Below are positions 6,609-53,034 of a DNA stretch of 64,000 bases, piece after piece. The stretch's first letter is position 1; each line of letters begins with the position of its first letter. The notes beneath the pieces were generated by a model. It searched no databases. It was not told where the DNA came from and saw only the letters and a list, made by a program, of their open reading frames with translations. Origin of the DNA: an uncultured SAR86 cluster bacterium (GTDB lineage Bacteria > Pseudomonadota > Gammaproteobacteria > Magnimaribacterales > AG-339-G14). The stretch covers positions 1,609 to 65,608 of the forward strand of contig CACBOY010000004.1 of assembly GCA_902540995.1 (NCBI GenBank), given 5' to 3'. A program made the translations under genes and the position numbers.

Positions 6609-6625
6609 AGGAATAAGCTATTACC

Positions 6626-36391: not shown

Positions 36392-36538
36392 ATGAAATTT
36401 ACTTTAGTTTTTATTCTCTTTTCAATAATTTCGTGTGGGGCGGGTTATTCTGATAACTCTTCAAATCTTAATAATGATCAATCTGCAACAACAATAAATT
36501 ATAAAAATGTTCCAGAGAATCTTAATCTTTTGAAATAA
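36392..36538 (+). CDS. Small lipoprotein L1 (48 aa), not in the ORF track
   Basis: My translation: MKFTLVFILFSIISCGAGYSDNSSNLNNDQSATTINYKNVPENLNLLK. Lipobox IISC. The stop TAA is immediately followed by the ATG of the next gene. No clear SD. Confidence 0.45.
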   Translation: MKFTLVFILFSIISCGAGYSDNSSNLNNDQSATTINYKNVPENLNLLK

Positions 36539-38224
36539 ATGAAAAAAATATTTTTTATTCTTTTATTTTTTATAGGAAATTCTTTTTCTTTTCCAGATTT
36601 AAGTACTTTCGACATATCTAAACCCATCATAAGAAACTCTAAAATTACATACGTACACCAATATCAGGTTGATGTAGGTTTTGGCAGAATGAGTTCATAT
36701 TTGTGTTTATTTAGGGATACAGATTACAAAGATTTTATTAACTTGAACGATGGTGTTGGCTATAAAGCTATCATTGATAATGATAAATGCGAGAATCCTG
36801 AAAAAAATCTACCTTGGATTGTTAAAGCGACTCAAGCTTCAGATACTTCAGATTTAGTCATAGATATGTCTATGCCAGATGATCCAAATGGCGATGGAAG
36901 ATTTAAACTCATTATTAAAGAAAACGCTACGGAAGATAATCCTTTTGGCGAACTTACCATGGATTATAACTATGTGTTGAGGCCTTCAAATATTCCTATG
37001 TATAACGCTACATATGAATCGGTAAAACTACCTAATAATTTAATTAAATTTGAATCTTCAATATTTTTAGACTCTGTCGTTATAGACAATACATTTGGTG
37101 CAACAAATAGAATCTATTTTTATTCCTCAAAAATACTTCACGAACCAGGAGTAGGTGGTCATGGTACGGTTTCGGATTTCACTTTCAGCGATCTTGCAAT
37201 CTATGATGGTCTTATAAATTCCTATAAAGTTAGTGGTTATATCGAAGCAAGTAATAATGATCGTAATTATCCCGACGGTGCTCCTATCGGAGTAAGCACT
37301 GTTAACTTTGCTTACAACGATAATGTGGTTAAGTATGAAATTATTAATGGTTATGGCGGACAAAAATCTGGAGTTTGGATAGATGAAGGACCAAATGGCA
37401 CTGGTTCGTTTCAATCATCAGATATTTGCCTTAGCAGAAAAGATAGCTGGAATCATGTCCCTTGGGGTGGTTATGGTGTTTATAATGAATCTGGAGATAG
37501 ACTTCCCTATGACGCAAATGGAGATAATAACCCCAATACAGGAATAGCTGTTCCTTATGATCTTCAAGCAATAAACGGTATTACTACTTCAAATGTAACC
37601 TTTTCCGATGCTGTAATTATTTTCAGCGGCAGCAGAATAGGTATGGGTATACAATGCAGGAAGATTGCTGATGGTAGCAGTTATGGAAATACATTTTGTC
37701 CTGGAACTGGCTTAGGTGATATAAATACTATAGTAAGAATAAATGGAGAGGATTATCAAAATTTTCCTTTATTCGATATTCCTGAAGGTACTGTTTTAAC
37801 AGATTCAGGGGGAAATGAATATTACATAAGGCAATTAGGTCCAAAAAAGGTATTTAGTAGCAAGCCTTTGAGTGATCAAGAATGTACATCTTTAACTATC
37901 AAGTCTTCAGAAACTACACCAGATCATACTTTCTTTAACTATCCAACTATAAATATACCTAAATCTGGCGCTATTCTTGTTAATAAACTTGTCTCAAAAC
38001 CGTCTTTTGATACTCACTCTTCTGGTATTTCATTTTCAAAATTATTTGATACTGATGGAGACGGTATATTGAATTATTTAGATGCTTATCCTACTGATGC
38101 CTTGAAAAGTAAAGACGATGATTACGATGGCATAGAAGATTCTGAAGATTCTGATATAACTGTTTTTCAGCAAGTTTGGGAAAAGCATTTAAACAAAAGC
38201 TTGTTCTCAGGATACACAAAATAA
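36539..38224 (+). CDS. Secreted protein P3 (561 aa), short paralogue of the 46447 and 49871 proteins, with a C-terminal Asp-rich Ca2+-binding-type tail
   Basis: Signal peptide MKKIFFILLFFIGNSFSF. Blocks shared with P1/P2: YLCLF...C, FGELTMDY, YGVYNESGDR, IPEGTVLTD. DTDGDGILNYLDAYPTD...DDDYDGIEDSEDSD at the C-terminus. Confidence 0.7.
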   Translation: MKKIFFILLFFIGNSFSFPDLSTFDISKPIIRNSKITYVHQYQVDVGFGRMSSYLCLFRDTDYKDFINLNDGVGYKAIIDNDKCENPEKNLPWIVKATQASDTSDLVIDMSMPDDPNGDGRFKLIIKENATEDNPFGELTMDYNYVLRPSNIPMYNATYESVKLPNNLIKFESSIFLDSVVIDNTFGATNRIYFYSSKILHEPGVGGHGTVSDFTFSDLAIYDGLINSYKVSGYIEASNNDRNYPDGAPIGVSTVNFAYNDNVVKYEIINGYGGQKSGVWIDEGPNGTGSFQSSDICLSRKDSWNHVPWGGYGVYNESGDRLPYDANGDNNPNTGIAVPYDLQAINGITTSNVTFSDAVIIFSGSRIGMGIQCRKIADGSSYGNTFCPGTGLGDINTIVRINGEDYQNFPLFDIPEGTVLTDSGGNEYYIRQLGPKKVFSSKPLSDQECTSLTIKSSETTPDHTFFNYPTINIPKSGAILVNKLVSKPSFDTHSSGISFSKLFDTDGDGILNYLDAYPTDALKSKDDDYDGIEDSEDSDITVFQQVWEKHLNKSLFSGYTK

Positions 38225-39018: not shown

Positions 39019-39750
39019 ATGATAAACAAAATCATTTATTTATTTTTTACTGCTTTATTGTCTTTTAATTTATTTTCAAATGAGAATACATTAAGGCCTG
39101 GCAGTGGTGTTTATGAATTCCATTTTTTTAATGTAACTAATCCAGCAGGGTTTGTGGCTGCCATTGAGACCTTTGATTCTTCGTCTTGCGCTGCCAAATG
39201 GAGAAATGAATCTGGAGCAAATGTAGGTCTTTATTCTCGTATGGGAGGAGGACATTCACATATTATTTTAGTTGCATATGAAAATTATGACATGATGCAA
39301 AAAGGACAAAATATTTTTGCATCTTGTGCAGCATCTTCAGAAATGAATGTAGCCTTTGATAAAACTTCAATTAGTGAAGATTATTATAATTATGTTACCG
39401 AGCTAGTTTTAGAGGCTGGTGATTGGCGACTGAATACAGTTTTTTCTAACATTGAAGTTAAGGTAAAAACTGGAAGTCAGGCATCTTACTTAGAAGCTTA
39501 CAAACTGCTAACAAATTCCACTGCTGATTCATTTGGTTCGTATGGTATCAATAGAGTAGTTTATGGCAACAAATACGTATCTCATATGTTGTATAACGGA
39601 TCTAACTCTATTCAAGAACTAAATGATGCTCTAGATGAAGTTTACGCTTCAAATGAATTCAAGTCTTTCAATAGAAAGGTTGGAAACATAAGAAAATTAG
39701 TAAATTCTACACTCGCTCAATTGGTTAAAGCATATCCAGCTGAAAGATAG
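39019..39750 (+). CDS. Secreted hypothetical protein (243 aa), paralogue of the previous gene
   Basis: Signal peptide. AGGAG SD 9 nt upstream. No known motif recognised. Confidence 0.6.
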   Translation: MINKIIYLFFTALLSFNLFSNENTLRPGSGVYEFHFFNVTNPAGFVAAIETFDSSSCAAKWRNESGANVGLYSRMGGGHSHIILVAYENYDMMQKGQNIFASCAASSEMNVAFDKTSISEDYYNYVTELVLEAGDWRLNTVFSNIEVKVKTGSQASYLEAYKLLTNSTADSFGSYGINRVVYGNKYVSHMLYNGSNSIQELNDALDEVYASNEFKSFNRKVGNIRKLVNSTLAQLVKAYPAER

Positions 39751-39799: not shown

Positions 39800-40537
39800 T
39801 TAACTATTATTTTCCCAGTGAAATTTTGGTAGTTTTTTTACTCCCTTATCTATTTGTTTAGCCCAAATATCAGATAATTCTTTAAAGAAAGGGGAATCTA
39901 GTTTTAATTGCTCTTGAAAATCTAAGTTTATTTGATCTTTTTTAAAGACAATTAAATCTATAGGAGGGCCAACAGTTAAGTCAGATCTCATTGTAGAATC
40001 TAAAGACAGGAGGGCAACTCTTGCTGCATCTCCTACGGATGTATCTGGATGAATCATTCTATCTAAAATAGGCTTTCCATATTTAGTTTCTCCAATTTGC
40101 ATATAAGGTTGCTCGTCGGACATATGTATATGATTTCCTTCAGGATATACAAGCATTAAATTTGGCTCTTGACCTTTAATTTGTCCTCCAACTATAAAAT
40201 GCGAACCTAAAACTACACTATTCTGAGAAGGATTTTCATTTGCTACTGACTGATACTCAACATTCAACTCTCCCACATAAGCAGCTACATCATCTAAATC
40301 TTCGCAGGTATTAAGGCTTCTTGATACTTCAGTTGATGACAGATCTTTCTCAATACGATGATATACCGCTTGGGAGGTAGCTAAATTTCCTGATGTAAGG
40401 ATGACAAAAGCCCTATCTCCCACGTTAAAAGTAAACATTTTTGAATACGTACTGACATTGTCTAAACCAGCATTGGTTCGGGAATCAGAAGCAAAGACTA
40501 AACCGTCTTCAATTTTTATTGCAACACAATAGGTCAT
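39800..40537 (-). CDS. Anbu-type proteasome-like peptidase (ancestral beta-subunit homologue)
   Basis: 245 aa. MTYCVAIKIEDGLVFASDSRTNAG... has Thr at position 2 as the putative N-terminal nucleophile, the typical Anbu start. Adjacent to ATP-grasp and alpha-E genes, as in known Anbu loci. Confidence 0.8.
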   Translation of the reverse strand: MTYCVAIKIEDGLVFASDSRTNAGLDNVSTYSKMFTFNVGDRAFVILTSGNLATSQAVYHRIEKDLSSTEVSRSLNTCEDLDDVAAYVGELNVEYQSVANENPSQNSVVLGSHFIVGGQIKGQEPNLMLVYPEGNHIHMSDEQPYMQIGETKYGKPILDRMIHPDTSVGDAARVALLSLDSTMRSDLTVGPPIDLIVFKKDQINLDFQEQLKLDSPFFKELSDIWAKQIDKGVKKLPKFHWENNS

Positions 40538-40572
40538 TTTGGGCTATAAATTGGACCTCAGTAATATTATAA

Positions 40573-42054
40573 ATGAATGATATATTGAGTTTTGGTAAAT
40601 ATACTAATAATTATATGAAATTAAAGTGGTCAAATTACGAATTGGCTAAATCTTTTGATGAATATATTAATTCTGATAATAAGGTAAGAAGCCACATTAG
40701 AAAGATTGGTAATTTTTTTGAATCTTTATCTCTAACAGAACTACAGGAACTTAATAGCTCTACCGAATCCGCAATTAAATCTCTTGGAATAAATTTCCGT
40801 GTTTATTCTGATACAGGTTCAGAGGAGAGGAATTGGCCTTTGGATTTTATTCCTAGAATTATTAAAAAGAGGGAATGGGATCAAGTAAGTAAGGGTCTTA
40901 TTCAAAGATCCAAGGCATTAAATTTATTTATCGAAGATTGTTATAACGAACAAAAGTTTTTAAAACAAAGTTCTATGAATGATGATTTGATATTCAAATC
41001 AAAAGCATATTTTTCTTTTTGTAAAAACGTAAAGCTGCCTAATTCTGCTTGGTCTCATATTTGTGGTTCGGATTTAATAAAAGATATAAAAGGTGATTTT
41101 CATGTATTAGAAGATAATTTAAGAATACCCTCAGGAGTTTCTTACATGCTTGAAAATAGATATGTAATGAAAAGAGTTTTCCCTGATCTTTTCTCTCACT
41201 ATGGTGTATCTAGAATTGATGAATATCCTCTTCGTTTATATGAAACACTAGTAGATTCGTCCTTTAGAAATACTAAGTCTCCAGAAATAGTATTGCTCAC
41301 TCCTGGAATTTATAACTCAGCATATTATGAACATTCTTATTTAGCTCAACAGATGGGAATAGATTTAGTAGAGGGAAGGGATCTAGTTGTAAAAAACGGA
41401 TATGTCTACAAAAAAACAATAGAAGGTTTGTCAAAAGTTGATGTGATATATCGTAGAGTAGATGATGCTTTTTTAGATCCTGAAGTTGGAAATCCTAAAA
41501 GTGTTCTTGGGGTAAGAGGATTGATCAAATGTTGGAAAAACAAAACAGTATCTATCGTTAATGCGCCTGGATGCGGCATCGCTGACGATAAAGCAGTCTA
41601 TAGATACGTTCCAGAGATGATTAAATTTTATTTGGATGAGGAATGCATTCTCCCCAATATAAAAACATATCTTATGAGTAAAAAGAAACATAGAAATTAT
41701 GTTTTTCAGAATATTAGAAAAATGGTTATAAAGCCTGTTGCTGAAGCAGGTGGGTATGGAATAGTTATTGGTAAAACCTTAAATAATGAAACAGAAGAAG
41801 AAATCAAAAAGAAGGTTTTAGGAAATACAAAAAATTACGTTGCTCAACCATTAATTGATCTATCCACAACACCAACTTTTAGTAGAAACGAAATTTCTCC
41901 ACGTCACTTAGATTTAAGACCCTTCATCCTTTCAGGAAAAAAAACTTACGTAACGGTGGGTGGATTAACTAGAGTAGCTTTAAAAAAAGGATCAACTGTT
42001 GTTAATTCTTCCCAAGGGGGAGGAAGCAAAGATACTTGGATAGTTGAAGCATAA
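40573..42054 (+). CDS. Circularly permuted type-2 ATP-grasp protein (COG2308-like)
   Basis: 493 aa. Size, the C-terminal ...GGLTRVALKKGSTVVNSSQGGGSKDTW motif and its pairing with an alpha-E protein fit this family. Confidence 0.75.
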   Translation: MNDILSFGKYTNNYMKLKWSNYELAKSFDEYINSDNKVRSHIRKIGNFFESLSLTELQELNSSTESAIKSLGINFRVYSDTGSEERNWPLDFIPRIIKKREWDQVSKGLIQRSKALNLFIEDCYNEQKFLKQSSMNDDLIFKSKAYFSFCKNVKLPNSAWSHICGSDLIKDIKGDFHVLEDNLRIPSGVSYMLENRYVMKRVFPDLFSHYGVSRIDEYPLRLYETLVDSSFRNTKSPEIVLLTPGIYNSAYYEHSYLAQQMGIDLVEGRDLVVKNGYVYKKTIEGLSKVDVIYRRVDDAFLDPEVGNPKSVLGVRGLIKCWKNKTVSIVNAPGCGIADDKAVYRYVPEMIKFYLDEECILPNIKTYLMSKKKHRNYVFQNIRKMVIKPVAEAGGYGIVIGKTLNNETEEEIKKKVLGNTKNYVAQPLIDLSTTPTFSRNEISPRHLDLRPFILSGKKTYVTVGGLTRVALKKGSTVVNSSQGGGSKDTWIVEA

Positions 42055-42965
42055 TGTTAAGTAGAAGTGCCAAACATCTTTACTGGTTAGCCAGATATAT
42101 CGAACGAACAGAAAATATAGCTAGGATGATAGACGTTAATTTAGAACTAATTCTTGATTATCCTGTAGATCATTCACTCAACTGGAAACCATTAATAGAT
42201 ACTCTAGATGCAAACCAATACTATGAAAAAAAATACAAAAAATATAACGAAGATAATGTTTTAAGTTTTCTTTTTGAGGGGGCTAATAATTCTAGTTCAA
42301 TAAAAAATTGTTTGGACATGGCCAAATACAATATTGAAACAGTTAGGGATGATTTACCAAAATCTGCAAGTATCAGTTTGAATCATCTTTACGATCATAT
42401 CTTTAATGAATCTTTTTTAAAGATTCATAAGAGAAAAAGATTGCCTTACATAACGAATATAGTGGACCTTACCCAAGAATTTTTTAGTTCGATAAATGAC
42501 AATCTTTCAAGAGGATACGAATTTGAATTTATAAGATTAGGTAGATTTTTAGAAAGGATTGATATGATATCGCGAATCATAGATTGTCTGTGTATTACTA
42601 AAAGCGATAAAAAGACCTATGACTTTTCTACTATGGAGTGGATAAGTTTGTTATCAATATTGTCAGCTCAAGACGCTTTTAGAAAGGTATCGAAAGGAGA
42701 GGTAGATAGAGAAGAAGTAATAAACTTTCTTTTACAAGATGATAGTTTTCCTAGATCAATAACAAGATGCCTTTCAGTATTAAGACTTTGTTTAGACAGC
42801 TTTCCTAAAAATGAAAAGATAATCCTTAAGATTAGAACTTTAAGATTAAGATTTGACACAGCATCATTTGAAAACTTTGATGATAATAGATTACATATAT
42901 TTCTAGATAAGTGTCAAAAGGATCTTATTGCAATAGATAAGCTAGTAGAAAAAACATATTTTTGA
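42054..42965 (+). CDS. Alpha-E domain protein (COG2307-like)
   Basis: 303 aa. MLSRSAKHLYWLARYIERTENIARMIDV is the typical alpha-E N-terminus. TAATG overlap with the ATP-grasp gene. Confidence 0.75.
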   Translation: MLSRSAKHLYWLARYIERTENIARMIDVNLELILDYPVDHSLNWKPLIDTLDANQYYEKKYKKYNEDNVLSFLFEGANNSSSIKNCLDMAKYNIETVRDDLPKSASISLNHLYDHIFNESFLKIHKRKRLPYITNIVDLTQEFFSSINDNLSRGYEFEFIRLGRFLERIDMISRIIDCLCITKSDKKTYDFSTMEWISLLSILSAQDAFRKVSKGEVDREEVINFLLQDDSFPRSITRCLSVLRLCLDSFPKNEKIILKIRTLRLRFDTASFENFDDNRLHIFLDKCQKDLIAIDKLVEKTYF

Positions 42966-43637: not shown

Positions 43638-45371
43638 TTAATAGCCGCTTCCGCCGCCTCCTCCAAGACCACCTCCACCTAGACCACCACCTCCACTGGA
43701 TGCAGTTTGGTCTTTTATAACAATAGTACCTCCCATACCAGAGTGAATTTCACAATAATAATACAGAGCAGATATACCTGAGGAAGGAATTGTTATTGTG
43801 ACTTCAGTTCCAACTGTAGACACATTAGTTGTATATTCGTCACCTGGATTATTCGTTCCATCGATATTTGTCGAAAACTTAAAGGGATGATTAGCTATGT
43901 TGGGAATATTAAATTTATAAGTTTGACCAGCTTTTACTACTAAGGTTTTTTTAACTACACCATCAATAAAATATCTATTACCAGCTCCAAATGGATTGGA
44001 ATCAACTAGTACTTGAATTGTTTTTGAAGCTGCATTAGGAGTATTTACAGTTGTGGGAACAACATCTGCATGAATTATTTCATTTGAAGTTTTAGCAATT
44101 GTGTTCCAAAGGTTAGATTTGGTATCAGATCTAATCCATGTATTGAATTCCGTGACAAATTCAGAGAGCTTGTAGTACTCAGTACTATTTTTCCAGAAGA
44201 CATCCTCAAATGCGTCTTGCCAACCATTACCAGATCTTGCAAGTTCTGCTTCTTGCCAAGAGGTGTAATATTTAGACATAGCAGCATTGAAATTTCTTTC
44301 ATCTTTACTCCAAAGATAAAGCAAGGCACTAGCACCTGCTGAATATCCAACATTTCCAGTTAAATTAAAATCTGCCAGACTTCTTCCTGCATCACCTGCA
44401 AAATAATCGAATGCTGCTCCAAAATGATCTTCAAACTGTTGCGCTGGATTAGTAGTTATTCCGGTCTTTGTATTTGCATATTTAGCTGATAAAACAATAC
44501 CACCAAATTCAGCCCCACCCTCTTCTATGTACCATGGAAAATAAGCTGGGGTAGAAGCTGAAGCAGGATCTAACAAACTTGGATTAGAAAACCAAGCTTT
44601 TGGAAGAGAAATAGTTTTTGAGGTCTCGTTATAAAATTTTAAAGAATTTTGATATACGTGAAAATATTCATGTGCTATCACTTTAAAAGATTGTTGTATT
44701 CTTTCCGCATCACTTGCAAAGTTTGAATTACCTTCAGAATTTCTTTTATCCCAAACGAGCGCTTGAGGTATTTGAATATCAGCCCCATTTGGCGCTGCTT
44801 CATGAGAGTAGCCTCCTCCGGCAGACTCTAAAGGAAAACCATCGTAGTTTGCTAATGCATTATTATAGTTTGATAGTGGAGCTTGTACTGTTGCAAAATC
44901 TGTATTGTAAGCGTTCTTTTCCGTAGAATTTACATCGCTTGAGATAACTTTGTCATAAGGTGAACTACTATTAGCTCCTAGAACAAAAACATTAACAGGA
45001 ACTATTTGACCCAAAGTATTTTTTGAATATTCTAAAAGTTCATTAATATAAGTTTTCCAAGAGATACTTCCAGTTGATATTATTGTATTAGTCGCTTCGT
45101 AATAATTTTCACAAATAGGCATTGCCTCAAAGCTAGTTTCTTGCCAAAAAAAACTGTAATTGTTAAACACTGTGTTTGAAGATGAAGCATTTGGCATAGT
45201 TGTGTACCAAGCTTTTTTACAAGCATTTGCAGGATTTAAATTTGTGATAGTTGAGCTAGAACCACCTGAAGAGCTACTTGAAGAACTAGAGTAAGAACTA
45301 CTTCCACCTCCTCCTCCACAAGCTGTTATAAAAGATACTAAAAAGAAAACTAACCAAAATTTATTGTTCAT
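43638..45371 (-). CDS. Lipoprotein with Gly/Ser linker, HExxH motif, C-terminal cupredoxin-type domain and poly-Gly tail
   Basis: 577 aa. MNNKFWLVFFLVSFITAC-GGGGGSSSYSSSSSSSSGGSSS. HEYFH encoded at 44658-44672. C-terminal ...ANHPFKF...YYYCEIHSGMGGTIVIKD (His...Cys-x2-His-x2-Met, amicyanin-like spacing). Ends GGGGLGGGGLGGGGGSGY. Confidence 0.7.
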   Translation of the reverse strand: MNNKFWLVFFLVSFITACGGGGGSSSYSSSSSSSSGGSSSTITNLNPANACKKAWYTTMPNASSSNTVFNNYSFFWQETSFEAMPICENYYEATNTIISTGSISWKTYINELLEYSKNTLGQIVPVNVFVLGANSSSPYDKVISSDVNSTEKNAYNTDFATVQAPLSNYNNALANYDGFPLESAGGGYSHEAAPNGADIQIPQALVWDKRNSEGNSNFASDAERIQQSFKVIAHEYFHVYQNSLKFYNETSKTISLPKAWFSNPSLLDPASASTPAYFPWYIEEGGAEFGGIVLSAKYANTKTGITTNPAQQFEDHFGAAFDYFAGDAGRSLADFNLTGNVGYSAGASALLYLWSKDERNFNAAMSKYYTSWQEAELARSGNGWQDAFEDVFWKNSTEYYKLSEFVTEFNTWIRSDTKSNLWNTIAKTSNEIIHADVVPTTVNTPNAASKTIQVLVDSNPFGAGNRYFIDGVVKKTLVVKAGQTYKFNIPNIANHPFKFSTNIDGTNNPGDEYTTNVSTVGTEVTITIPSSGISALYYYCEIHSGMGGTIVIKDQTASSGGGGLGGGGLGGGGGSGY

Positions 45372-46400: not shown

Positions 46401-46431
46401 AAAAAAAGCCTTCCGAAGAAAGCTTTTTTTT
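46401..46431. terminator. Bidirectional-looking intrinsic terminator between convergent genes
   Basis: AAAAAAAGCCTTC-CGAA-GAAAGCTTTTTTTT: 9-bp stem with one mismatch, flanked by an A-run and a T-run. Confidence 0.6.
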
Positions 46432-46446: not shown

Positions 46447-49400
46447 TTAGTTTGCAGGCGGAGTCGCGATAACTTCTCCCATTAAAACGGATGGTTCACC
46501 TGAATTCAATAATGTCGTTGGCACAGTACCAATATAATTTTCAGATGTTCCATTTGGCCCAGTATCAACAAGATCTGTCGCAGGACCCATAATAGCTTTT
46601 GTTAAAGAAGAATAATCTCTTGCAGGTAAGGCATTTTTCTCAGATGTACTTAATACCTTCAAGAATTCATCACCTGATAATGCTTTAACAAAATAATTCT
46701 GTGCTGGACTCGCTGAATTGTCTGTTACAACTGAGCCTGTGGGAATAGTAAATTTTGAAGCCCATCTGTGGCAATTTTCACTCCAATTTCCATAGAAATA
46801 TTCTCCTAAAAACTCTCCTGTACAAGTATCAAAAACTCCGCCAGGTATATTAAAAAGGTTACCAAAGCCTTCAAACCACAGTGAATAAGTTTTACCAATA
46901 TCAGCTGCAGCAATACCTGAATTTGCAGTAGTGAATGAAGTTGTATCCAGTTCTAAAGTTTTCGGTTGGTCAATAACAACTGGCGTCCCACCATCGGATA
47001 ATTGATAATTACCATTCATCATAACCATAACTTCATAATAAGTTGAAACTGCACCTTGCCAAAGTTTATCTTCGCAGTATCTGGTAGCATTCATCAAAGA
47101 GGCATTTCCATCGTATCTAGGATGATCATCATCATAGAAGAAGTAATCGCCACCACCATCTTTGTCACATTCCAATAAGGCTAAATTTGCTGCAGAAACT
47201 AACTTACCAGTCCTCGCTGACCAACCTATATATTCAGTTGCCCAAGGATTGGTAGACGCATGATACTCAGGTAAGGCAGCTTGAAGACTTCCAAGTTGCC
47301 AGTCAATTGGTTCTCCTGTAGCAGTTTCAATTTGAGCAAACTTTGTTTGAACGGTAGATGAAATTGTCATTTCATTTGCACTGGAAACACTTTCAAAATA
47401 CATCTTGCCAGAATTTAAAACATAGTCGACTACATAAGATGAGGTAATTCCGTCTATTCGATCAAGAGTTCCACTATTATTAAACCATGGCGTTGCATCT
47501 GCATCATATATTGATGCGGCTACATCATTAAAAGCACCGTCATCGCCCGTTGCTTCCGTCAATTTTGCATCTGCCGCTGCTTCGTATCTGGCATTCAATA
47601 AATCGGGTTTAAGACAATTTGTAATACATTTAAGATTGTTTCCATCTAGATCTGTTGCTAATTGCGATACTGATATTCTGTTTATAGACTCAGATTTTAA
47701 ACCTACCCCAGCAGCAGTTGAAGTTGGTGCAGCAACTGCAGCTCCTGGTATTTGAAAACTTTGAAAAGTATCTGGTGACCAAGTCCACATATCAAGAGTT
47801 TGGCCATTTAATACCATCACCGTAGCATACTCACTTTGTGTAATAGTTTTTGGTGCTGGCGTTGTACCGTCAGCTGCAACTAATTCAATTCTTGGATCGC
47901 CATTATTCGACCACTTCATGCCATGAGTGATGACGAAAGCCGATTGAGCGCTATCCCAGTAACCTTCATAACTGTAAAAACAGACATGATTATTAGCATC
48001 GTTGAAGTCACTATTGTTACAAGTTCCTCCATTACCACCTACTTTTTTACCATTTACAGTAGCTGCAGCAGCCCCCCAGTTTAGAATAGCTGCATTTCCC
48101 CAGGCAGAAGCCCATTGAGAATCCCAGCCAACATCGATACTGAGTTTTATTTTGTTAATACTATCCAGAGGTTTATAGGTTGTTTCAAATTTTGTGATAT
48201 CTAAATAGGTTTTTGACAATGCACAGTTTCCTGTGGCACAAGGACCGGTATCTTTTCCATCATCTCGTTTCCAACTAAGCGCAGTAGGATCAAAAGATGC
48301 TCTACCATAGGTATCGACCCAAATACCCCAATAATCTGCCCAGCCGTAATAATCATCTCCAGAGCCAGGATTAGTAGCTCGCATTGGAAATGAGCCAGAA
48401 CTTTCCCCTACTCTTGCGCCACTCGAGTCGTAAACTCCATATCTCCAGACATTTTTATAAGCATCGGATTTTTTTGTGCTGTAACAAATTTCATCTGATG
48501 ACAATCCTGTATCAGATAGACTAACAGCAACTGTTTGCGCTGCCTGCCCTTCTGCTGCTCCCATTTTCCCGTCTGAATTATTAAAATCAAAAAAGGTACC
48601 AAAAAAAGATTGATTTACAGCTTCAGCGGCTAATACTTTTTCGCAATACCAATCACCTGCATCATTAATAATAAATTGCGTATAAACAACCAAGCCCCCA
48701 TCGCCACCTGTATTACTCGGAGAGGCAGACCAAGTACTATCCCAAAGTTCATGGGTATAAATCCCTTGGGCTCCTGTATCGTTATAGGAAATTGAAATTT
48801 CTTCTATTCCCATAATGCTTTCTTTGAAAAGAATTGTGTTGTTTTCGGATTTCACATACCCATTACCCAGACTAAAATTTTGTGCTTCAATTTTTTCTTT
48901 TTTAGTCATTGCTGTGGTATCTAATGCATCTGTAGGTGCAGTTACTCCAAATTGAGTAGCAAGTTTTGCAGCATCAGCATACAAAGAATAATTCATAGTA
49001 AAGTTTCCAAGAATATTGTCGGCTGTTGGATTGGAAGTTTGTTGATACTTAAGATAAACGGTCGCATCAAAAGGAAGACCATCTCCACCACCACCATCTT
49101 GAGCACCAGGACCTGTTGCTGCACCTGCTGGACCTGCTGCAGAATCATCTTTTGCAAGTTGAATCCAAACTTTTCCTTCCATCGGAGAAGAACCATCAGT
49201 TTGAGTAACAGTTAAAAAGGTTGTATTACCAGATTTACCTGTTTTCTTGTTTGAACCTCCGGAATTTCCTCCACCAGCTTGACCACCTCTAGACTTGGTA
49301 GCTTTATCTTTATCACCAGCTCTAGCTTTACCAAAATTACAATCGTCTTCAAAGATTGTTGCAACGTAAGATCCTTTATTTAAAAAAGTCACTGGTTTAG

Positions 49401-49575
49401 TATTTTCTAGATAACAAAGCAATAAATTAACTCTTTCTAAAGAATCATTTACCTTGTTTCCGGAAACAAAGTAGTCGGTTTCATCTGTAGTAAATGCACC
49501 AGACGTTGGTGGTGTTTGCGTAAAATTTAAGGTTGAAAAAAAACTTAAAATCAATATTTTCAAAAAAATCTTCAT
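46447..49575 (-). CDS. Large secreted protein P1 (1042 aa), unrecognised family, paralogue of P2 and P3
   Basis: Start taken at the ATG at 49575 (MKIFLKILILSFFSTLNFTQT signal peptide), not the track start at 49761. Gly-rich low-complexity inserts near the N-terminus. Ends ...VIATPPAN. Confidence 0.75.
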   Translation of the reverse strand: MKIFLKILILSFFSTLNFTQTPPTSGAFTTDETDYFVSGNKVNDSLERVNLLLCYLENTKPVTFLNKGSYVATIFEDDCNFGKARAGDKDKATKSRGGQAGGGNSGGSNKKTGKSGNTTFLTVTQTDGSSPMEGKVWIQLAKDDSAAGPAGAATGPGAQDGGGGDGLPFDATVYLKYQQTSNPTADNILGNFTMNYSLYADAAKLATQFGVTAPTDALDTTAMTKKEKIEAQNFSLGNGYVKSENNTILFKESIMGIEEISISYNDTGAQGIYTHELWDSTWSASPSNTGGDGGLVVYTQFIINDAGDWYCEKVLAAEAVNQSFFGTFFDFNNSDGKMGAAEGQAAQTVAVSLSDTGLSSDEICYSTKKSDAYKNVWRYGVYDSSGARVGESSGSFPMRATNPGSGDDYYGWADYWGIWVDTYGRASFDPTALSWKRDDGKDTGPCATGNCALSKTYLDITKFETTYKPLDSINKIKLSIDVGWDSQWASAWGNAAILNWGAAAATVNGKKVGGNGGTCNNSDFNDANNHVCFYSYEGYWDSAQSAFVITHGMKWSNNGDPRIELVAADGTTPAPKTITQSEYATVMVLNGQTLDMWTWSPDTFQSFQIPGAAVAAPTSTAAGVGLKSESINRISVSQLATDLDGNNLKCITNCLKPDLLNARYEAAADAKLTEATGDDGAFNDVAASIYDADATPWFNNSGTLDRIDGITSSYVVDYVLNSGKMYFESVSSANEMTISSTVQTKFAQIETATGEPIDWQLGSLQAALPEYHASTNPWATEYIGWSARTGKLVSAANLALLECDKDGGGDYFFYDDDHPRYDGNASLMNATRYCEDKLWQGAVSTYYEVMVMMNGNYQLSDGGTPVVIDQPKTLELDTTSFTTANSGIAAADIGKTYSLWFEGFGNLFNIPGGVFDTCTGEFLGEYFYGNWSENCHRWASKFTIPTGSVVTDNSASPAQNYFVKALSGDEFLKVLSTSEKNALPARDYSSLTKAIMGPATDLVDTGPNGTSENYIGTVPTTLLNSGEPSVLMGEVIATPPAN

Positions 49576-49577
49576 AG

Positions 49578-49748
49578 TTACCCCTCTGAATCTACTGGCT
49601 GAAAACTTCCAGGTACTTGATATCCTTGTGCGGCTCCACCACTTCCTGATGAACCAGAACTTGAACTGGAAGACGATGATCCACCTCCACCTCCACAAGC
49701 TGAAATAAAAATTAATATCGATAAAGTTAAAAAGAATTTCTTTGTCAT
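49578..49748 (-). CDS. Small Gly/Ser-rich lipoprotein L2 (56 aa), not in the ORF track
   Basis: My translation: MTKKFFLTLSILIFISACGGGGGSSSSSSSSGSSGSGGAAQGYQVPGSFQPVDSEG. Lipobox ISAC. GGGAGA SD. Stop is 2 nt before the P1 ATG. Confidence 0.6.
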   Translation of the reverse strand: MTKKFFLTLSILIFISACGGGGGSSSSSSSSGSSGSGGAAQGYQVPGSFQPVDSEG

Positions 49749-49822
49749 TTAAATCTCCCAATCGTTATATCCAAACTACTCTCATTTATCCTAAAAAACA
49801 ATAAAAATTAGAGATTGTTTTC

Positions 49823-49856
49823 AAAAAAAACCCCTACTTACAGCAGGGGTTTTTTT
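49823..49856 (-). terminator. Intrinsic terminator downstream of P2
   Basis: AAAAAAAACCCCT-ACTTACAGC-AGGGGTTTTTTT: GC stem flanked by A8 and T7, 15 nt after the P2 stop. Confidence 0.65.
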
Positions 49857-49870
49857 CGTAAACCTAAACT

Positions 49871-52855
49871 TTAGTTTGCAGGTGGTGAATGAACCGTTTT
49901 TCCGTGGATAACAGATGGATCATCACTTCCAGCAGAAGGTAAAGTAGTTGCTGGAACCGTTCCTATAGCATTATTTCCACTGAAAAGATTTTGAATGGTA
50001 TTTTCAGCTGGAAGATCACCAGCCAGTTTTGAATAGGATACTCCAGCAGGAATACTATCTAATTTTTTTAGGTACTCGTCACCTCTTAGAGCTCTTACCT
50101 TAAGATCTTCTCCAGAAGCATTTGTAAGAACAGATCCATCCGGAATGATAAATTCATGAATATAACGGTAACATTGGTTCCATCCACTATTTACATATCT
50201 TCCTAGTACTTGGCCAGTACAGGTATTGACAACTCTACCAGGTATATTATGGAGTTCACCATAACCTTCAAATTTTAGTTTATATTTTTTACCCGCCAAT
50301 GGCTGTGTATTTGCTGGTGCAAAATTATAAGTTACTCCACTTGCTGGAACAGTAAATATTACCGTTTCAGGAGCTGAAACGTTTACGTACTGACTGGTTG
50401 TAGCATTATAAAGTCTATAATCAGGCATTTGTTTAAAATTAATTTCATATTGAGTAGAAACTGCTCCTTCCCAAAGTTTATAGTCACAGTAATAAGCAGC
50501 AGTTCCACCGGTATGTATTACAGCATTGTTACTTTTAGCTTTTATCGAAGGCCTATAACCTCTAGCGTTTGTTCCATCGTGATCGCAAAGTAAAGCTGCC
50601 TTATTGGTATCAGAATTAATCACCGTGGTCATATGAAATGCCCATCCAAAAGCGTTTGAATAGTTATTGGGATATCCAGCAGGTTTATAGTAGAACTGAT
50701 AATTTGATAAGGCATCTCCATGTTGTCTAGCATCAACTTTAGGTTTATTGGTATTGTTGTATTCCAAATAAGTTGCACCAGCAGCTCCATCTCTTAATTT
50801 CTCGACCGATCCAACAGTAACAACAGTATAGATAGCAGCATCAGCTACTTTTATTCCACCTACAAGATTGTATTCTCCTGCAGCGATATCAGGCTCAGCA
50901 GGAAGGTTTTGAGAATTGTTTGCTGGAGACTCATCTTGATAAACTACCTGTTTCCACCATGGGCCAATGTTTTTAAAAGGAGATACATTTAACACTCCCG
51001 GATTTTCTGGAACGGCAGCAGCTGTAAAAGCAGCATCAATTGCAGTATTGATATTATTAGCGTCTAAACATTCTCTTATGCACATTAATCCAGTTGCATT
51101 GTCTCCTGATTCGGCAGCAATATCCGTTTTCAATTGTTCAATACTTATTTTTGTTTGTATACGAGTTCTTGCTTGAGTATTTAAAGCCGTTGAATCAACA
51201 TCACCAAAAGCACCGTGTGGTATCGTATAACTTTGATGAGAATCTGGATCCCAGAAATGCATTCTTCTACCATATCCACCGCTTATCATATCTGCATACC
51301 AATTTGCAGCAGTAAAAGATATTGGGTTATCTAAAGCAAAAGGAGTAGTTCCATTCCCCCAATCCATTCCATGTGTGATGGTGAAAGTTACTGCTGTACC
51401 AGCATCGTTCACGGTGATATTTCCAGAATACTCAGGACAATTAGCTTGAGCAGCATTACAAGACCCTGTAACTGGAATACCATCTCCTAGACTTGCGAGT
51501 TTAGCTTGATATGTTCCCCCATCTTTAAAATTACCTGCATACCATTGAAAAGAGACACCGCCTAATTGGTTTAAAGGCAAGCGTTCTCTCGTTTTTTTTA
51601 AGATTTCATAGTAATTCTTTCTTAAGTTATAGGAATTGTTATCGTTAGCATCTCTCTGATTTCTGAAAATTGTCGTATCTGTTACATTAGCCCTATCCGA
51701 TGGGTTGACGTGCGAACCCCAATAACTTGCGTGAGACCAGATTGAATTAGATAAGCCACCGTTATCAACCGTGTTTGCCTCTAAGGACATAGAAGGATTA
51801 GTTAAATCAGCTCTAGAACCATCGGAATTTTTATAAGTTCCATATTCGTAGATAACTCTTTTGGCTTCACTTCTGCTTGTATTCCAACAATGCTCGCCGG
51901 TAATTGTAGCCCCAGTACCACCATCAGTATTCACATAACCTCCGCCAGCCTCTGCGGCAGTAATAGCTGAGGCAAGATCTGTTCCGCTTATAGCAGTACC
52001 TTGTGACCAAATACCTGTTCCTCCTTGAGTGTATTCATTAGCACTCTCAAATTTCTGACAATATCTATCTGCACCTTCATTTACTTGAATTTGATGTCTG
52101 ACACCATAAACTGTTTGTCCTGCACCTGTTACTATTCTCAAGATTGTTTGCATGTATCCTTGAATATTATTTGGATCAGCCAAATCAGCTACAATAACTC
52201 TATCAGGACCTTGCATACCCGTTTCACGATATTGAATAGTTGTATTGTCCACATTTAAATAACCTTGATTTATAGGCAAATTAGCAAGAGGAAAACCAGC
52301 TGCATTATTGGCTTGTTTATTTCTTAAGTCATAACGCATGGTAAAACTACCAAATTTGTTTGTTGCACTTTTATCGGCAGTAATACTCATTGAAAGAAAA
52401 GCGGTAGTTGGTACTGGATCGCCATTAAATCCTTCAATTTCAATATCTACCCAACCTGTTCCAGAGACAGCACTACCTGAAGTAGTTCCTCTGTATATTC
52501 CTGGAGTATATTCAGTAGCGTCAACTTCATTGGCAGCTCCACCACCTCCTCCTGATGCAGCAGAAGAACCTGTTGCAGAAGCAGCTTCAGATGCAGCATC
52601 AGCACCAGAGGCTGTTTCACACTGTGCTTCATCTGTAAGAGCTTTGTAAACTCCTTTATCAATGAAGGTAGAAAAATTAGTGCTTTCTACAAAACATAGA
52701 AGAAAATTTACTTGTGACATGGCATCATTAGCCAAGATACCTGGTACATAATAATCCACTTCAGCAGCATCATCATCATATGCAGTTTGAGTGAAAACCG
52801 CGTTGACGCATAAAGTTGAAAATATAATCGCAAATAGTAATTTTTTTAAATACAT
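49871..52855 (-). CDS. Large secreted protein P2 (994 aa), unrecognised family, paralogue of P1 and P3
   Basis: Signal peptide MYLKKLLFAIIFSTLCVNAVFTQT. GGAGA SD. Many collinear conserved blocks with P1. Ends ...TVHSPPAN. Confidence 0.75.
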   Translation of the reverse strand: MYLKKLLFAIIFSTLCVNAVFTQTAYDDDAAEVDYYVPGILANDAMSQVNFLLCFVESTNFSTFIDKGVYKALTDEAQCETASGADAASEAASATGSSAASGGGGGAANEVDATEYTPGIYRGTTSGSAVSGTGWVDIEIEGFNGDPVPTTAFLSMSITADKSATNKFGSFTMRYDLRNKQANNAAGFPLANLPINQGYLNVDNTTIQYRETGMQGPDRVIVADLADPNNIQGYMQTILRIVTGAGQTVYGVRHQIQVNEGADRYCQKFESANEYTQGGTGIWSQGTAISGTDLASAITAAEAGGGYVNTDGGTGATITGEHCWNTSRSEAKRVIYEYGTYKNSDGSRADLTNPSMSLEANTVDNGGLSNSIWSHASYWGSHVNPSDRANVTDTTIFRNQRDANDNNSYNLRKNYYEILKKTRERLPLNQLGGVSFQWYAGNFKDGGTYQAKLASLGDGIPVTGSCNAAQANCPEYSGNITVNDAGTAVTFTITHGMDWGNGTTPFALDNPISFTAANWYADMISGGYGRRMHFWDPDSHQSYTIPHGAFGDVDSTALNTQARTRIQTKISIEQLKTDIAAESGDNATGLMCIRECLDANNINTAIDAAFTAAAVPENPGVLNVSPFKNIGPWWKQVVYQDESPANNSQNLPAEPDIAAGEYNLVGGIKVADAAIYTVVTVGSVEKLRDGAAGATYLEYNNTNKPKVDARQHGDALSNYQFYYKPAGYPNNYSNAFGWAFHMTTVINSDTNKAALLCDHDGTNARGYRPSIKAKSNNAVIHTGGTAAYYCDYKLWEGAVSTQYEINFKQMPDYRLYNATTSQYVNVSAPETVIFTVPASGVTYNFAPANTQPLAGKKYKLKFEGYGELHNIPGRVVNTCTGQVLGRYVNSGWNQCYRYIHEFIIPDGSVLTNASGEDLKVRALRGDEYLKKLDSIPAGVSYSKLAGDLPAENTIQNLFSGNNAIGTVPATTLPSAGSDDPSVIHGKTVHSPPAN

Positions 52856-52872
52856 TTTTTTCTCCGATAAAA

Positions 52873-53034
52873 TTAATCTGTTGCTTGAACTGGATCTACT
52901 TGCCCAGCAAAATTCCCAGTTGGGGCTGCTCCACTAGAGCTACTACCACTACTACTACTTGCTACAGAGGAACCTCCTCCTCCGCCACAAGAAATAAGAA
53001 ATACAACAAAAATAATGCTTATAAAATTTTTCAT
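52873..53034 (-). CDS. Small Gly/Ser-rich lipoprotein L3 (53 aa), not in the ORF track
   Basis: My translation: MKNFISIIFVVFLISCGGGGGSSVASSSSGSSSSGAAPTGNFAGQVDPVQATD. Lipobox LISC. AGGAGA SD. Stop is 17 nt before the P2 ATG. Confidence 0.6.
   Translation of the reverse strand: MKNFISIIFVVFLISCGGGGGSSVASSSSGSSSSGAAPTGNFAGQVDPVQATD

What the first reader, a model, noticed from the sequence alone, without database searches (positions are those of the whole stretch)
46447..53034. Tandem duplicated two-gene modules: a ~55-aa Gly/Ser-rich lipoprotein directly upstream of a ~1000-aa secreted protein of unrecognised family
Two consecutive minus-strand units share one architecture. Each begins with a short ORF below the track's size cut-off: L2 (49748-49578, 56 aa) and L3 (53034-52873, 53 aa). 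Both short ORFs have a good SD (GGGAGA, AGGAGA), a signal peptide, a lipobox Cys and a GGGGG-Ser-rich linker. They are followed after 2 nt and 17 nt by P1 (1042 aa) and P2 (994 aa), which carry their own Sec-type signal peptides. P1 and P2 are collinear paralogues. Shared blocks are LLC[YF]xE[NS]T...C, [LF]GxFTMxY, YG[VT]Y, ITHGM[KD]W, KLW[QE]GAVST, FEG[FY]GxLxNIPG..TCTG and a terminal PPAN. I recognise no catalytic motif, known repeat class, beta-barrel signature or known sorting signal in them. Each unit ends in its own hairpin/T-tract terminator. A conserved anchor-like lipoprotein paired with large cargo, with a third shorter copy at 36392-38224, suggests a functional pair rather than chance. 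One hypothesis is a lipid-anchored tether or partner for a surface or periplasmic protein. The function is unknown.
Basis: partly seen in the sequence, partly recalled or inferred. Interest (0 to 1): 0.78.

Follow-up and report, generated by a model that had tools for sequence, protein, structure and literature searches.

The report
Split lipid anchor for secreted protein
Three gene pairs in this SAR86 marine-bacterium window each encode a tiny lipid-anchored peptide and, right after it, a large exported protein of no known fold; the pairing recurs across marine and soil Gammaproteobacteria and is sometimes fused into one protein, so the small peptide most likely leashes the large one to a membrane.

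Summary
L3/P2, L2/P1 and a third pair, L1'/P3, are real at the stated coordinates. P1 and P2 are collinear paralogues (27% identity, E=1e-69). P3 shares their N-terminal ~330 aa.

P has no match in Pfam, NCBIfam, PHROGs, PADLOC or PDB sequences. Confident AlphaFold2 models (pLDDT 82) have no Foldseek match in PDB or BFVD.

In every P-family gene with upstream sequence except one domain-fused variant (35 of 35 in SAR86 loci plus the window, and six more distant loci up to 62% GC), a lipobox ORF lies directly upstream. Its constant parts are the lipid-attachment Cys, a Gly/Ser run and a conserved 10-15 aa acidic C-terminal motif (pN/pS 0.33). The middle is variable: nothing, a cupredoxin-like domain shared with marine phage tail fibres, or cadherin-like repeats.

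Three divergent relatives are natural L-P fusions. In one lineage the pair follows gspD-M. Cys-GGG matches the published sorting motif of type II secretion (T2SS)-dependent surface lipoproteins.

Best reading: L is a detachable lipid anchor for P, probably at the cell surface. The docking step is inferred, and an AlphaFold2 cis-fusion test did not show it. P's biochemical role is unknown, and its conservation pattern looks structural, not catalytic.

The parts
52873..53034 (-). L3: 53-aa prolipoprotein. It has a signal peptide, lipobox LISC, a GGGGGSS... Gly/Ser spacer and a conserved tail. It is the partner of P2.
   Evidence: sequence, SD AGGAGA. Orthologues lie upstream of every P2-type gene.
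52876..52926 (-). L3 C-terminal conserved motif APTGNFAGQVDPVQATD, the putative docking or complementing strand.
   Evidence: It is near-identical in 12 P2-type L ORFs despite synonymous changes; pN/pS=0.33.
49871..52855 (-). P2: 994-aa Sec-exported, beta-rich, Cys-rich protein of an uncharacterised family.
   Evidence: AF2 model pLDDT 82.2. No Foldseek or PDB match.
49823..49850 (-). Intrinsic-terminator-like hairpin (ACCCCT...AGGGGT) plus T8 after P2. It separates the two modules.
   Evidence: Read directly. The scan did not list it because the loop is 9 nt.
49578..49748 (-). L2: 56-aa prolipoprotein (lipobox ISAC, GGGGGSSSSSSSS spacer, tail). It is the partner of P1.
   Evidence: Orthologues in L017, L019 and L020 carry the tail GGAAQGYQVQEKIQAVD.
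49581..49634 (-). L2 C-terminal motif AAQGYQVPGSFQPVDSEG.
46447..49575 (-). P1: 1042-aa paralogue of P2.
   Evidence: BLASTP 27% identity, E=1e-69, collinear over the full length.
46401..46430 (-). Terminator-like hairpin plus T-tract after P1.
36392..36538 (+). L1': 48-aa prolipoprotein (lipobox IISC, then GAGYSDNSS..., tail INYKNVPENLNLLK at 36494-36535). It is the partner of P3.
   Evidence: P3-type L tails are conserved ([FIY]Q[FY]KNVP[ED]DLT[IF]L[DN]) in L013, L014, L018 and L023.
36539..38224 (+). P3: 561-aa short family member. It shares the N-terminal ~330-aa domain of P1/P2 and has a C-terminal Asp-rich, Ca-binding-like repeat.
   Evidence: hhalign 96.6%, E=6.6e-10. AF2 pLDDT 82.2, pTM 0.79. 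95 homologues found.
43638..45371 (-). Neighbouring 577-aa lipoprotein with the same ITAC-GGGGGSSS anchor type. It has an HEYFH motif and the same cupredoxin-like domain that long L variants carry. It is related context, not part of an L-P pair.

Best explanation
Each unit is a two-gene envelope module in which a lipoprotein anchor has been split off from its cargo.

L is made as a prolipoprotein. Signal peptidase II leaves a lipid-modified Cys, followed by a Gly/Ser run, a disordered low-complexity spacer and a conserved 10-15 residue acidic motif with alternating hydrophobic residues at the C-terminus. In other genomes the spacer also carries a cupredoxin-like or cadherin-like passenger domain.

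P is exported separately through Sec. It folds with several conserved disulfides into a beta-rich protein of unknown fold.

The L motif binds P, most likely as an added beta-strand on the N-terminal domain that P1, P2 and P3 share. P is thereby leashed to a membrane.

[quoted passage not shown] The most likely place is therefore the outer face of the outer membrane, where P acts as a structural or binding protein rather than an enzyme.

Shown: the gene pairing, its conservation, the modular build of L, natural fusions, and the lack of any known family or fold.

Inferred: binding through the tail, the location, the export route, and P's role.
For: Pairing:
- 35 of 35 P-family genes in SAR86 loci plus the window have a lipobox ORF 0-25 nt upstream.
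- The same holds for distant 746-787-aa relatives at 33-62% GC.

One functional unit:
- Three mutually divergent representatives (P0219, P0220, P0224) are single-chain fusions: lipobox, GGGG, linker, (A/T)(E/D)KISVV motif, linker, then the P domain. P0220 keeps a fossil of P's signal peptide.
- P0212 instead fuses Ig-like repeats directly to P.

Tail:
- It is conserved within each P orthogroup and is under purifying selection, pN/pS 0.33.
- The spacer varies freely in length and composition (G 30%, S 29%; poly-Q and poly-S variants).

Surface and T2SS:
- A GGG or Gly/Ser-rich P2'-P4' motif is required for GspN/T2SS-dependent surface localisation in A. baumannii and is a Lol-avoidance signal in Pseudomonas (PMC12802150).
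- In L027 and L036 the pair directly follows gspD-E-F-G-H-I-J-K-L-M on the same strand.
- The passenger domains are of extracellular types: cadherin-like repeats, and a domain shared with cyanophage and pelagiphage tail fibres.

Non-enzymatic P:
- Across 71 diverse members, the positions conserved at 90% or more are 7 Cys plus Gly, Tyr, Pro, Leu, Phe and two Asp.
Against: - The only direct test of docking failed. In an AF2 model of the in-frame L1'-X-P3 read-through, the L part stayed disordered (pLDDT 24-44, no strand). That segment had no alignment depth and P3's signal peptide was left in, so the result is weak evidence.
- No T2SS genes were found in the window or in any SAR86 locus held. 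Whether SAR86 has a T2SS was not established.
- L1' starts CGAG and the Steroidobacteraceae L starts CSSG, not GGG.
- The motif is retained in covalent fusions. Simple docking is therefore not its only possible role.
- No expression or localisation data were available.
Confidence: 0.55

Rival explanations
1. L and P form a periplasmic complex, or L is a secretion adaptor. [quoted passage not shown] L would then act like the membrane-associated T2SS chaperones LipB and CpaB. It would hold or present newly exported P near the membrane, after which P is released or stays periplasmic.
For: - T2SS chaperones are defined as membrane-anchored proteins encoded next to and co-regulated with their effector, 22-81 bp apart, with the C-terminal part in the periplasm (PMC4713064).
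- L is adjacent to P, upstream of it and membrane-anchored.
- GGG is an inner-membrane retention signal in Pseudomonas.
- The pair is adjacent to a T2SS operon in L036.
Against: - L has a lipobox, not a transmembrane helix.
- Short L proteins have no globular domain that could chaperone folding.
- Passenger domains of adhesin and tail-fibre type and permanent L-P fusions fit a lasting anchor better than a transient chaperone.
Confidence: 0.22
2. L and P are a redox pair. P is a periplasmic oxidoreductase with a protein-derived or unrecognised cofactor. The lipoprotein brings a type-1 copper electron carrier to it, as amicyanin does for methylamine dehydrogenase or lipid-anchored azurin (Laz) does in Neisseria.
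For: - Long L variants keep His...Cys-x2-His-x2-Met in 9 of 9 sequences.
- They give weak full-length matches to Pfam Copper-bind (E 0.05-0.08).
- The C-x2-H-x2-M spacing is that of amicyanin (my own knowledge).
Against: - Most L proteins, including all three in the window, have no such domain, and others carry cadherin repeats instead.
- P has no conserved His, Glu, Lys or Ser constellation.
- The same domain, with the same motif, sits in phage tail-fibre and baseplate proteins, where electron transfer is implausible.
- The cupredoxin assignment is itself not significant.
Confidence: 0.07
3. P is an outer-membrane translocon or assembly factor for its lipoprotein, working like Slam or a two-partner system. 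The L tail is the export signal.
For: - C-terminal signals and gene adjacency are typical of such systems (my own knowledge).
- The N-terminal third of P is a run of about 11 long antiparallel strands.
- The best, non-significant Foldseek hits of P3 are outer-membrane barrels and streptavidin.
Against: - No hit reaches significance (best E 0.1, TM below 0.3).
- P matches no DUF560, Bac_surface_Ag or other barrel family in Pfam.
- P ends in PPAN or GVVQ, not an aromatic beta-signal.
- P has conserved disulfides and soluble-looking domains.
- Fusing a substrate permanently to its translocon is unlikely.
Confidence: 0.06
4. The small ORFs are not functional proteins. They would be decayed remnants of a longer lipoprotein gene, or leader ORFs that only serve translational coupling of P.
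For: - They are tiny and largely low-complexity.
- They lie 2-17 nt from P.
- The homologous position holds a 161-185-aa gene in other SAR86 genomes.
Against: - The signal peptide, lipobox Cys and C-terminal motif are all kept across genomes from 33% to 62% GC.
- The tail codons change synonymously.
- The motif lies mostly outside P's ribosome-binding site.
- The motif survives in L-P fusions.
Confidence: 0.03

Closest known systems
T2SS/GspN-dependent surface lipoproteins of Acinetobacter baumannii (InvL and others) and pullulanase PulA (PMC12802150)
   Same: - A lipobox Cys is followed at once by GGG or a Gly/Ser-rich run.
- The passengers are adhesin-like.
- One lineage has the pair at the end of a gsp operon.
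   Different: - In those systems the lipoprotein is itself the cargo.
- Here the lipoprotein can be reduced to an anchor plus a peptide, and the large protein is a separate Sec-exported chain.
- T2SS dependence is untested, and a T2SS was not found in the SAR86 sequence held.
YdbH-YnbE of E. coli (PMC11126948)
   Same: A very small lipoprotein is encoded in one operon with a very large envelope protein. It is proposed to bind that protein by beta-strand augmentation.
   Different: - YdbH is an inner-membrane-anchored AsmA-like beta-groove lipid-transfer protein. P has a cleavable signal peptide, conserved disulfides and no AsmA-like match.
- YnbE is encoded downstream of ydbH (my own knowledge of the E. 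coli operon order), whereas L lies upstream of P.
- The gene order differs and there is no YdbL equivalent.
Membrane-associated T2SS chaperones LipB/Lif and CpaB (PMC4713064)
   Same: They are encoded directly next to their cognate exported protein, are membrane-tethered, and have a periplasm-facing C-terminal part.
   Different: - They are anchored by a transmembrane helix and have a globular chaperone domain.
- L is lipid-anchored, can lack any globular domain, and can be permanently fused to P.
Lipid-anchored cupredoxins with flexible linkers (Neisseria Laz, PMC6277709) and linker-bearing lipoproteins such as LpoB
   Same: The build is a lipid anchor, a long low-complexity linker and a small functional module. 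Long L variants carry a cupredoxin-like module.
   Different: - The module is optional here.
- The constant element is a C-terminal peptide tied to a specific downstream partner gene.
- The cupredoxin assignment is weak.

Membership tests
T2SS-dependent surface lipoproteins (GspN class, A. baumannii) | Type II signal peptide with a lipobox Cys | tested here: met
   LISC, ISAC and IISC lipoboxes follow a positively charged n-region and a hydrophobic h-region. The same is seen in all homologous L ORFs.
T2SS-dependent surface lipoproteins (GspN class, A. baumannii) | GGG or Gly/Ser-rich (more than 4 aa), or ND(N/D), motif at P2'-P4' after the Cys | tested here: met
   L2 and L3 start CGGGGGSS, and most homologues start CGGGG. 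L1' (CGAGYS) and the Steroidobacteraceae L (CSSGTS) fit only loosely. The motif definition comes from PMC12802150.
T2SS-dependent surface lipoproteins (GspN class, A. baumannii) | The genome encodes a T2SS, including GspN | tested here: inconclusive
   gspD-M lies directly upstream of the pair in L027 and L036, and GspN was not identified there. No gsp genes occur in the window or in the SAR86 loci held. Whole SAR86 genomes could not be searched.
T2SS-dependent surface lipoproteins (GspN class, A. baumannii) | Surface exposure that depends on the T2SS | not testable with these tools
   This needs fractionation or shaving in wild-type versus gsp mutants.
Membrane-associated T2SS chaperones (LipB/CpaB) | Encoded adjacent to, and co-oriented with, the cognate exported protein | tested here: met
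   Gaps are 0-25 nt on the same strand in all pairs.
Membrane-associated T2SS chaperones (LipB/CpaB) | N-terminal transmembrane helix and a globular periplasmic domain | tested here: not met
   L has a cleavable lipoprotein signal peptide. Mature short L is about 25-45 residues, with a Gly/Ser-rich spacer (30% Gly, 29% Ser).
AsmA-like bridge with a small lipoprotein partner (YdbH-YnbE) | The large partner is an AsmA-like repeating beta-groove protein with an inner-membrane anchor | tested here: not met
   No AsmA, TamB or DUF hits were found in Pfam or NCBIfam for P1-P3 or for 30 homologues. There is no Foldseek hit. P has a short cleavable-type signal peptide.
Cupredoxin (type-1 copper) domain, for the passenger in long L variants and in 43638-45371 | His, Cys, His, Met ligand set with C-x2-H-xn-M near the C-terminus of the domain | tested here: met
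   H104, C154, H157 and M160 are invariant in 9 of 9 sequences.
Cupredoxin (type-1 copper) domain, for the passenger in long L variants and in 43638-45371 | Significant sequence match to a cupredoxin family or structure | tested here: inconclusive
   Pfam Copper-bind gives E 0.05-0.08, below the gathering score, though the match covers the whole profile. The PDB plastocyanin match has E 0.64. The strong matches are to phage tail-fibre PHROGs instead.
Outer-membrane beta-barrel / Slam-like translocon (for P) | Membrane barrel domain family match and a C-terminal aromatic beta-signal | tested here: not met
   There is no Pfam match. The best Foldseek barrel hits have E 0.1 or worse. The C-termini read ...SPPAN...TPPAN and ...GVVQ.
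Braun lipoprotein (Lpp)-type small lipoprotein (for L) | Helical heptad-repeat body and a C-terminal Lys for peptidoglycan attachment | tested here: not met
   The body is Gly/Ser-rich and low-complexity. The C-termini are mostly acidic or polar (D, G, N, E, T, Q). Only L1' ends in Lys, and it too lacks a helical heptad body.

The most novel reading that the evidence does not exclude
This is a previously undescribed modular surface-display system of abundant marine bacteria. A lipopeptide 'leash' is exported to the cell surface. It captures a large protein of novel fold by donating its C-terminal strand, and it can carry plug-in modules (cadherin repeats, or a tail-fibre-type cupredoxin-like domain). 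P would then be a major surface or coat protein of SAR86, with three paralogous leash-cargo pairs per streamlined genome. It could serve as a substrate-capture device or a phage-contact layer. The domain shared with cyanophage and pelagiphage tail fibres would point to a common surface-recognition chemistry.
Probability: 0.3. Interest if true: 0.85.

Novelty: new variant of a known kind. Interest (0 to 1): 0.68.

Why it matters
SAR86 (Magnimaribacterales) makes up about 2-6% of the surface-ocean microbial community by metagenomic read recruitment and has streamlined genomes; the isolate's closed genome is 1.62 Mb (PMC11582366). This window alone spends about 8 kb on three of these pairs.

The profile search finds 673 representative proteins at 50% clustering. 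None has a name, a domain assignment or a known fold.

If the leash model holds, it would define three things:
- a new way to lipid-anchor a protein in Gram-negative bacteria, with the anchor and cargo on separate genes joined through a short peptide;
- a new protein fold family;
- a likely major envelope or surface component of one of the ocean's commonest heterotrophs, relevant to nutrient capture and phage recognition.

It also shows that gene callers miss the small partner in high-GC genomes. The system is therefore invisible in current annotation.

Tried and rejected
- **Family searches for P1, P2 and P3.** Pfam, NCBIfam, PHROGs and PADLOC gave nothing above noise. A Pfam scan of 30 homologues gave one stray hit.
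- **PDB profile searches.** Searches with the A1 and A3 profiles found nothing.
- **Foldseek.** The P2 model against PDB and BFVD, and the P3 model against PDB, gave no hit at E of 0.001 or better. The best TM-score normalised to the query was 0.17. The sialidase, GH43, outer-membrane-barrel, streptavidin and amine-oxidase top hits are noise.
- **AF2 docking test.** I used the natural in-frame L1'-stop-P3 read-through, with X at the stop. The L part stayed disordered. I count this as inconclusive, not as disproof.
- **T2SS genes.** tblastn with the L027 gsp proteins found none in the window or the SAR86 loci. Papers on SAR86 genomes say nothing about secretion.
- **Taxon of L027 and L036.** It could not be settled.
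- **Contexts of the fusion proteins.** They were uninformative.

Readings considered and rejected:
- Programmed frameshift or a single split gene. Each P has its own Shine-Dalgarno sequence, ATG and signal peptide, and the L stop codon is conserved.
- A defence or phage origin for P. There are no PADLOC or PHROG hits.
- A genomic island. Synteny is conserved across SAR86 genomes.


Full report
**1. The observation**

On the minus strand, L3 (53034-52873, 53 aa) is followed after 17 nt by P2 (52855-49871, 994 aa). After a hairpin/T8 terminator, L2 (49748-49578, 56 aa) is followed after 2 nt by P1 (49575-46447, 1042 aa) and a second terminator.

Both L ORFs have a Shine-Dalgarno sequence, a signal peptide, a lipobox (LISC, ISAC) and a GGGGG-Ser run. 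P1 and P2 are collinear paralogues (27% identity, E=1e-69).

The third unit is on the plus strand. It is a 48-aa lipobox ORF (36392-36538) abutting P3 (36539-38224, 561 aa). A profile-profile comparison shows that P3 shares the N-terminal ~330 residues of P1/P2 (96.6%, E=6.6e-10). A short C-terminal block also matches weakly.

A lipobox scan of both strands of the window finds seven candidates. Three of them sit directly before the three P genes.

**2. What P is**

P1, P2 and P3 hit nothing in Pfam, NCBIfam, PHROGs or PADLOC. Profiles of the family hit nothing in PDB sequences.

AlphaFold2 gives confident models:
- P2: mean pLDDT 82.2, pTM 0.65.
- P3: mean pLDDT 82.2, pTM 0.79.

The models are beta-rich. 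They begin with a short helical cap that holds a conserved Cys pair. A disordered Gly/Ser/Ala loop follows, and then a run of long antiparallel strands.

Foldseek finds no match at E of 0.001 or better in PDB or BFVD.

The family is large:
- 82 close homologues of P2 and 95 of P3.
- 673 representatives at 50% clustering, including 750-830-aa forms that keep the N-terminal, middle and C-terminal blocks.
- Larger forms with an inserted Calx-beta domain.

The genome scan, whose search patterns came from the P2-type alignment, returned 19 loci. Seventeen are titled SAR86, and two are titled only as Gammaproteobacteria MAGs. More distant members occur in a Steroidobacteraceae MAG (62% GC) and other high-GC contigs.

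Across 71 diverse members, the positions conserved at 90% or more are seven Cys plus Gly, Tyr, Pro, Leu, Phe and two Asp. That is a structural pattern, not a catalytic one. I infer a binding or structural role rather than an enzyme.

**3. What L is**

A script looked upstream of every P-family gene in the loci held. Thirty-four of 35 had a lipobox ORF ending 0-25 nt before P. The one apparent exception had a 174-aa lipoprotein that my pattern had missed.

L comes in several forms:
- Short forms of 39-66 aa, as in the window.
- Forms of 161-185 aa, which insert a ~100-aa domain between spacer and tail.
- In the 777-787-aa P subfamily, forms of 347-821 aa with cadherin-like repeats.

Two high-GC relatives have uncalled ORFs directly before P:
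- MKRLALLFVVSVFAGGLASC-GGGGGGSSPPPSSGSTTGVATPASVSVVTAKE
- ...ALAGC-SSGTS...GISTPKAVSVVTAN

The constant parts of L are the lipobox, the Gly/Ser run and a C-terminal motif. The motif is specific to each P orthogroup:

| P type | L tail motif |
|---|---|
| P2 type | APTGNFAGQVDPVQATD |
| P2 type with cupredoxin-like L | QVEFTETN, GQVELVETT |
| P1 type | GGAAQGYQVQEKIQAVD |
| P3 type | FQFKNVPEDLTILD |
| 777-787-aa type | IQLVETQEGT, LNLVETQKEAE |
| high-GC type | VSVVTAKE |

All share an alternating hydrophobic/acidic pattern near the end.

In 12 P2-type L ORFs the tail codons show pS 0.54 and pN 0.18, a ratio of 0.33. The spacer varies freely (30% Gly, 29% Ser, with poly-Q and poly-S versions). 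The small ORFs are therefore real genes. Their selected parts are the anchor and the tail.

**4. Evidence that L and P are one unit**

Beyond the invariant adjacency and the co-diversification of tail and P, there are natural fusions. Three mutually divergent representatives (P0219, P0220, P0224) have this order in a single chain:
- lipobox
- GGGG run
- Thr/Ser/Ala linker
- (A/T)(E/D)KISVV motif
- a further linker
- the P domain, starting at its usual mature N-terminus

P0220 still shows a signal-peptide-like remnant where P's own signal peptide would have been.

P0212 instead fuses Ig-like (InlB B-repeat) domains directly to the N-terminus of P and has no upstream lipoprotein.

These are classic Rosetta-stone arguments for a physical complex in which L supplies the lipid anchor.

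**5. Where and how**

In Acinetobacter baumannii, T2SS-dependent surface lipoproteins carry a GGG (Gly/Ser-rich) or ND(N/D) motif at P2'-P4' after the lipidated Cys. The motif is required for GspN-dependent surface localisation. In Pseudomonas, GGG is a Lol-avoidance signal (PMC12802150). L2, L3 and most homologues start CGGGG.

In one low-GC marine lineage the pair lies directly after gspD-E-F-G-H-I-J-K-L-M on the same strand.

The optional passengers are extracellular in character. One is cadherin-like repeats. The other is a domain that matches phage tail-fibre and baseplate families strongly (phrog_27200 E=1e-23, phrog_677 E=3e-14). It occurs in tail-fibre or virion proteins of Synechococcus, Prochlorococcus and Pelagibacter phages. 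The phage copies carry the same HPLR...YYYCxxHxxMG motif.

Together these favour a surface-exposed lipoprotein that leashes P outside the outer membrane.

Against this:
- I found no gsp genes in the window or the SAR86 loci, and I could not search whole SAR86 genomes.
- The AF2 cis-fusion test did not dock the L1' tail onto P3 (residues 1-49 at pLDDT 24-44). That segment had no alignment depth.
- Retention of the motif in covalent fusions means it may be an integral strand of the fold or have a second role, such as sorting.

**6. Rivals**

- **Periplasmic complex or T2SS-chaperone-like adaptor.** This fits the adjacency and the membrane anchoring (PMC4713064). It does not fit the lack of a globular domain, the passengers or the fusions.
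- **Redox pair.** This fits the invariant His/Cys/His/Met set. It fails because most L proteins lack the domain, P lacks catalytic-type conservation, and the domain sits in phage fibres.
- **Translocon role for P.** It has no significant support.
- **Non-functional leader ORFs.** This is contradicted by the conservation pattern.

**7. Comparison with known systems**

The module works most like a T2SS-type surface lipoprotein whose cargo has been moved to a separate gene. It also resembles the YdbH-YnbE pair, in which a tiny lipoprotein binds a large partner by strand augmentation (PMC11126948).

It is a member of neither family. P is not AsmA-like, L has no transmembrane helix or chaperone domain, and T2SS dependence is untested.

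I rate it a new variant of a known kind, a lipoprotein-anchored envelope complex, built from an undescribed protein family and fold.

**8. Verdict**

| Claim | Confidence |
|---|---|
| L is the lipid anchor of P | about 0.75 |
| Full model (tail docking plus T2SS-type surface exposure) | about 0.55 |
| The surface/T2SS step taken alone | about 0.4 |

P's biochemical role is unknown. The conservation pattern points to binding or structure. Interest is 0.68.

Noticed in passing
window 43638-45371 (-), and long L variants in L001, L004, L005, L013, L015, L018, L021 and L023: A ~100-aa domain has invariant His...Cys-x2-His-x2-Met (YYYCEIHSGMGG at 43763-43728). It is only weakly cupredoxin-like by sequence (E 0.05-0.6). 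It matches phage tail-fibre and baseplate PHROGs strongly (E down to 1e-23). tblastn finds it in 36 cyanophage and pelagiphage records, and the two phage copies I translated (S-B68 and Mosig) keep the same motif. A possible copper site in virion fibres and in bacterial surface lipoproteins is unexplained.
   Followed up: partly
window 43638-45371 (-): This 577-aa lipoprotein has the same ITAC-GGGGGSSS anchor as L2 and L3. It also has an HEYFH (HExxH, metalloprotease-like) motif at aa 234 (44672-44658), the cupredoxin-like domain, and a Gly-rich C-terminus (GGGGLGGGGLGGGGGSGY). It matches no family.
   Followed up: partly
L029 about 6580-6755 and L031 about 9833-9991: The small lipoprotein partner of P was not called as a gene in the high-GC MAG and metagenome records. 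The pairing is therefore invisible in existing annotation.
   Followed up: yes
L027 1-10340 and L036 1-12334: In a 34% GC marine lineage of uncertain taxon, a cadherin-repeat lipoprotein and a 777-779-aa P relative sit at the 3' end of a gspD-M type II secretion cluster. One cluster member is labelled as a Neomarinimicrobiota MAG.
   Followed up: partly
window 39800-42965: A proteasome-like (Anbu-type) subunit gene on the minus strand lies next to circularly permuted ATP-grasp and Alpha-E domain genes on the plus strand. This is a known conserved gene trio of unclear function.
   Followed up: no
window 38317-39009 and 39019-39750 (+): Two adjacent secreted proteins (230 and 243 aa) lie just downstream of P3. 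They match no Pfam family and show no detectable similarity to each other.
   Followed up: partly
window 37990-38130 (P3 residues about 485-530): The C-terminus of P3 carries an Asp-rich DxDGDGxxNxxD stretch. It resembles thrombospondin type 3 calcium-binding repeats, below threshold in Pfam, and it is conserved in P3 homologues.
   Followed up: no
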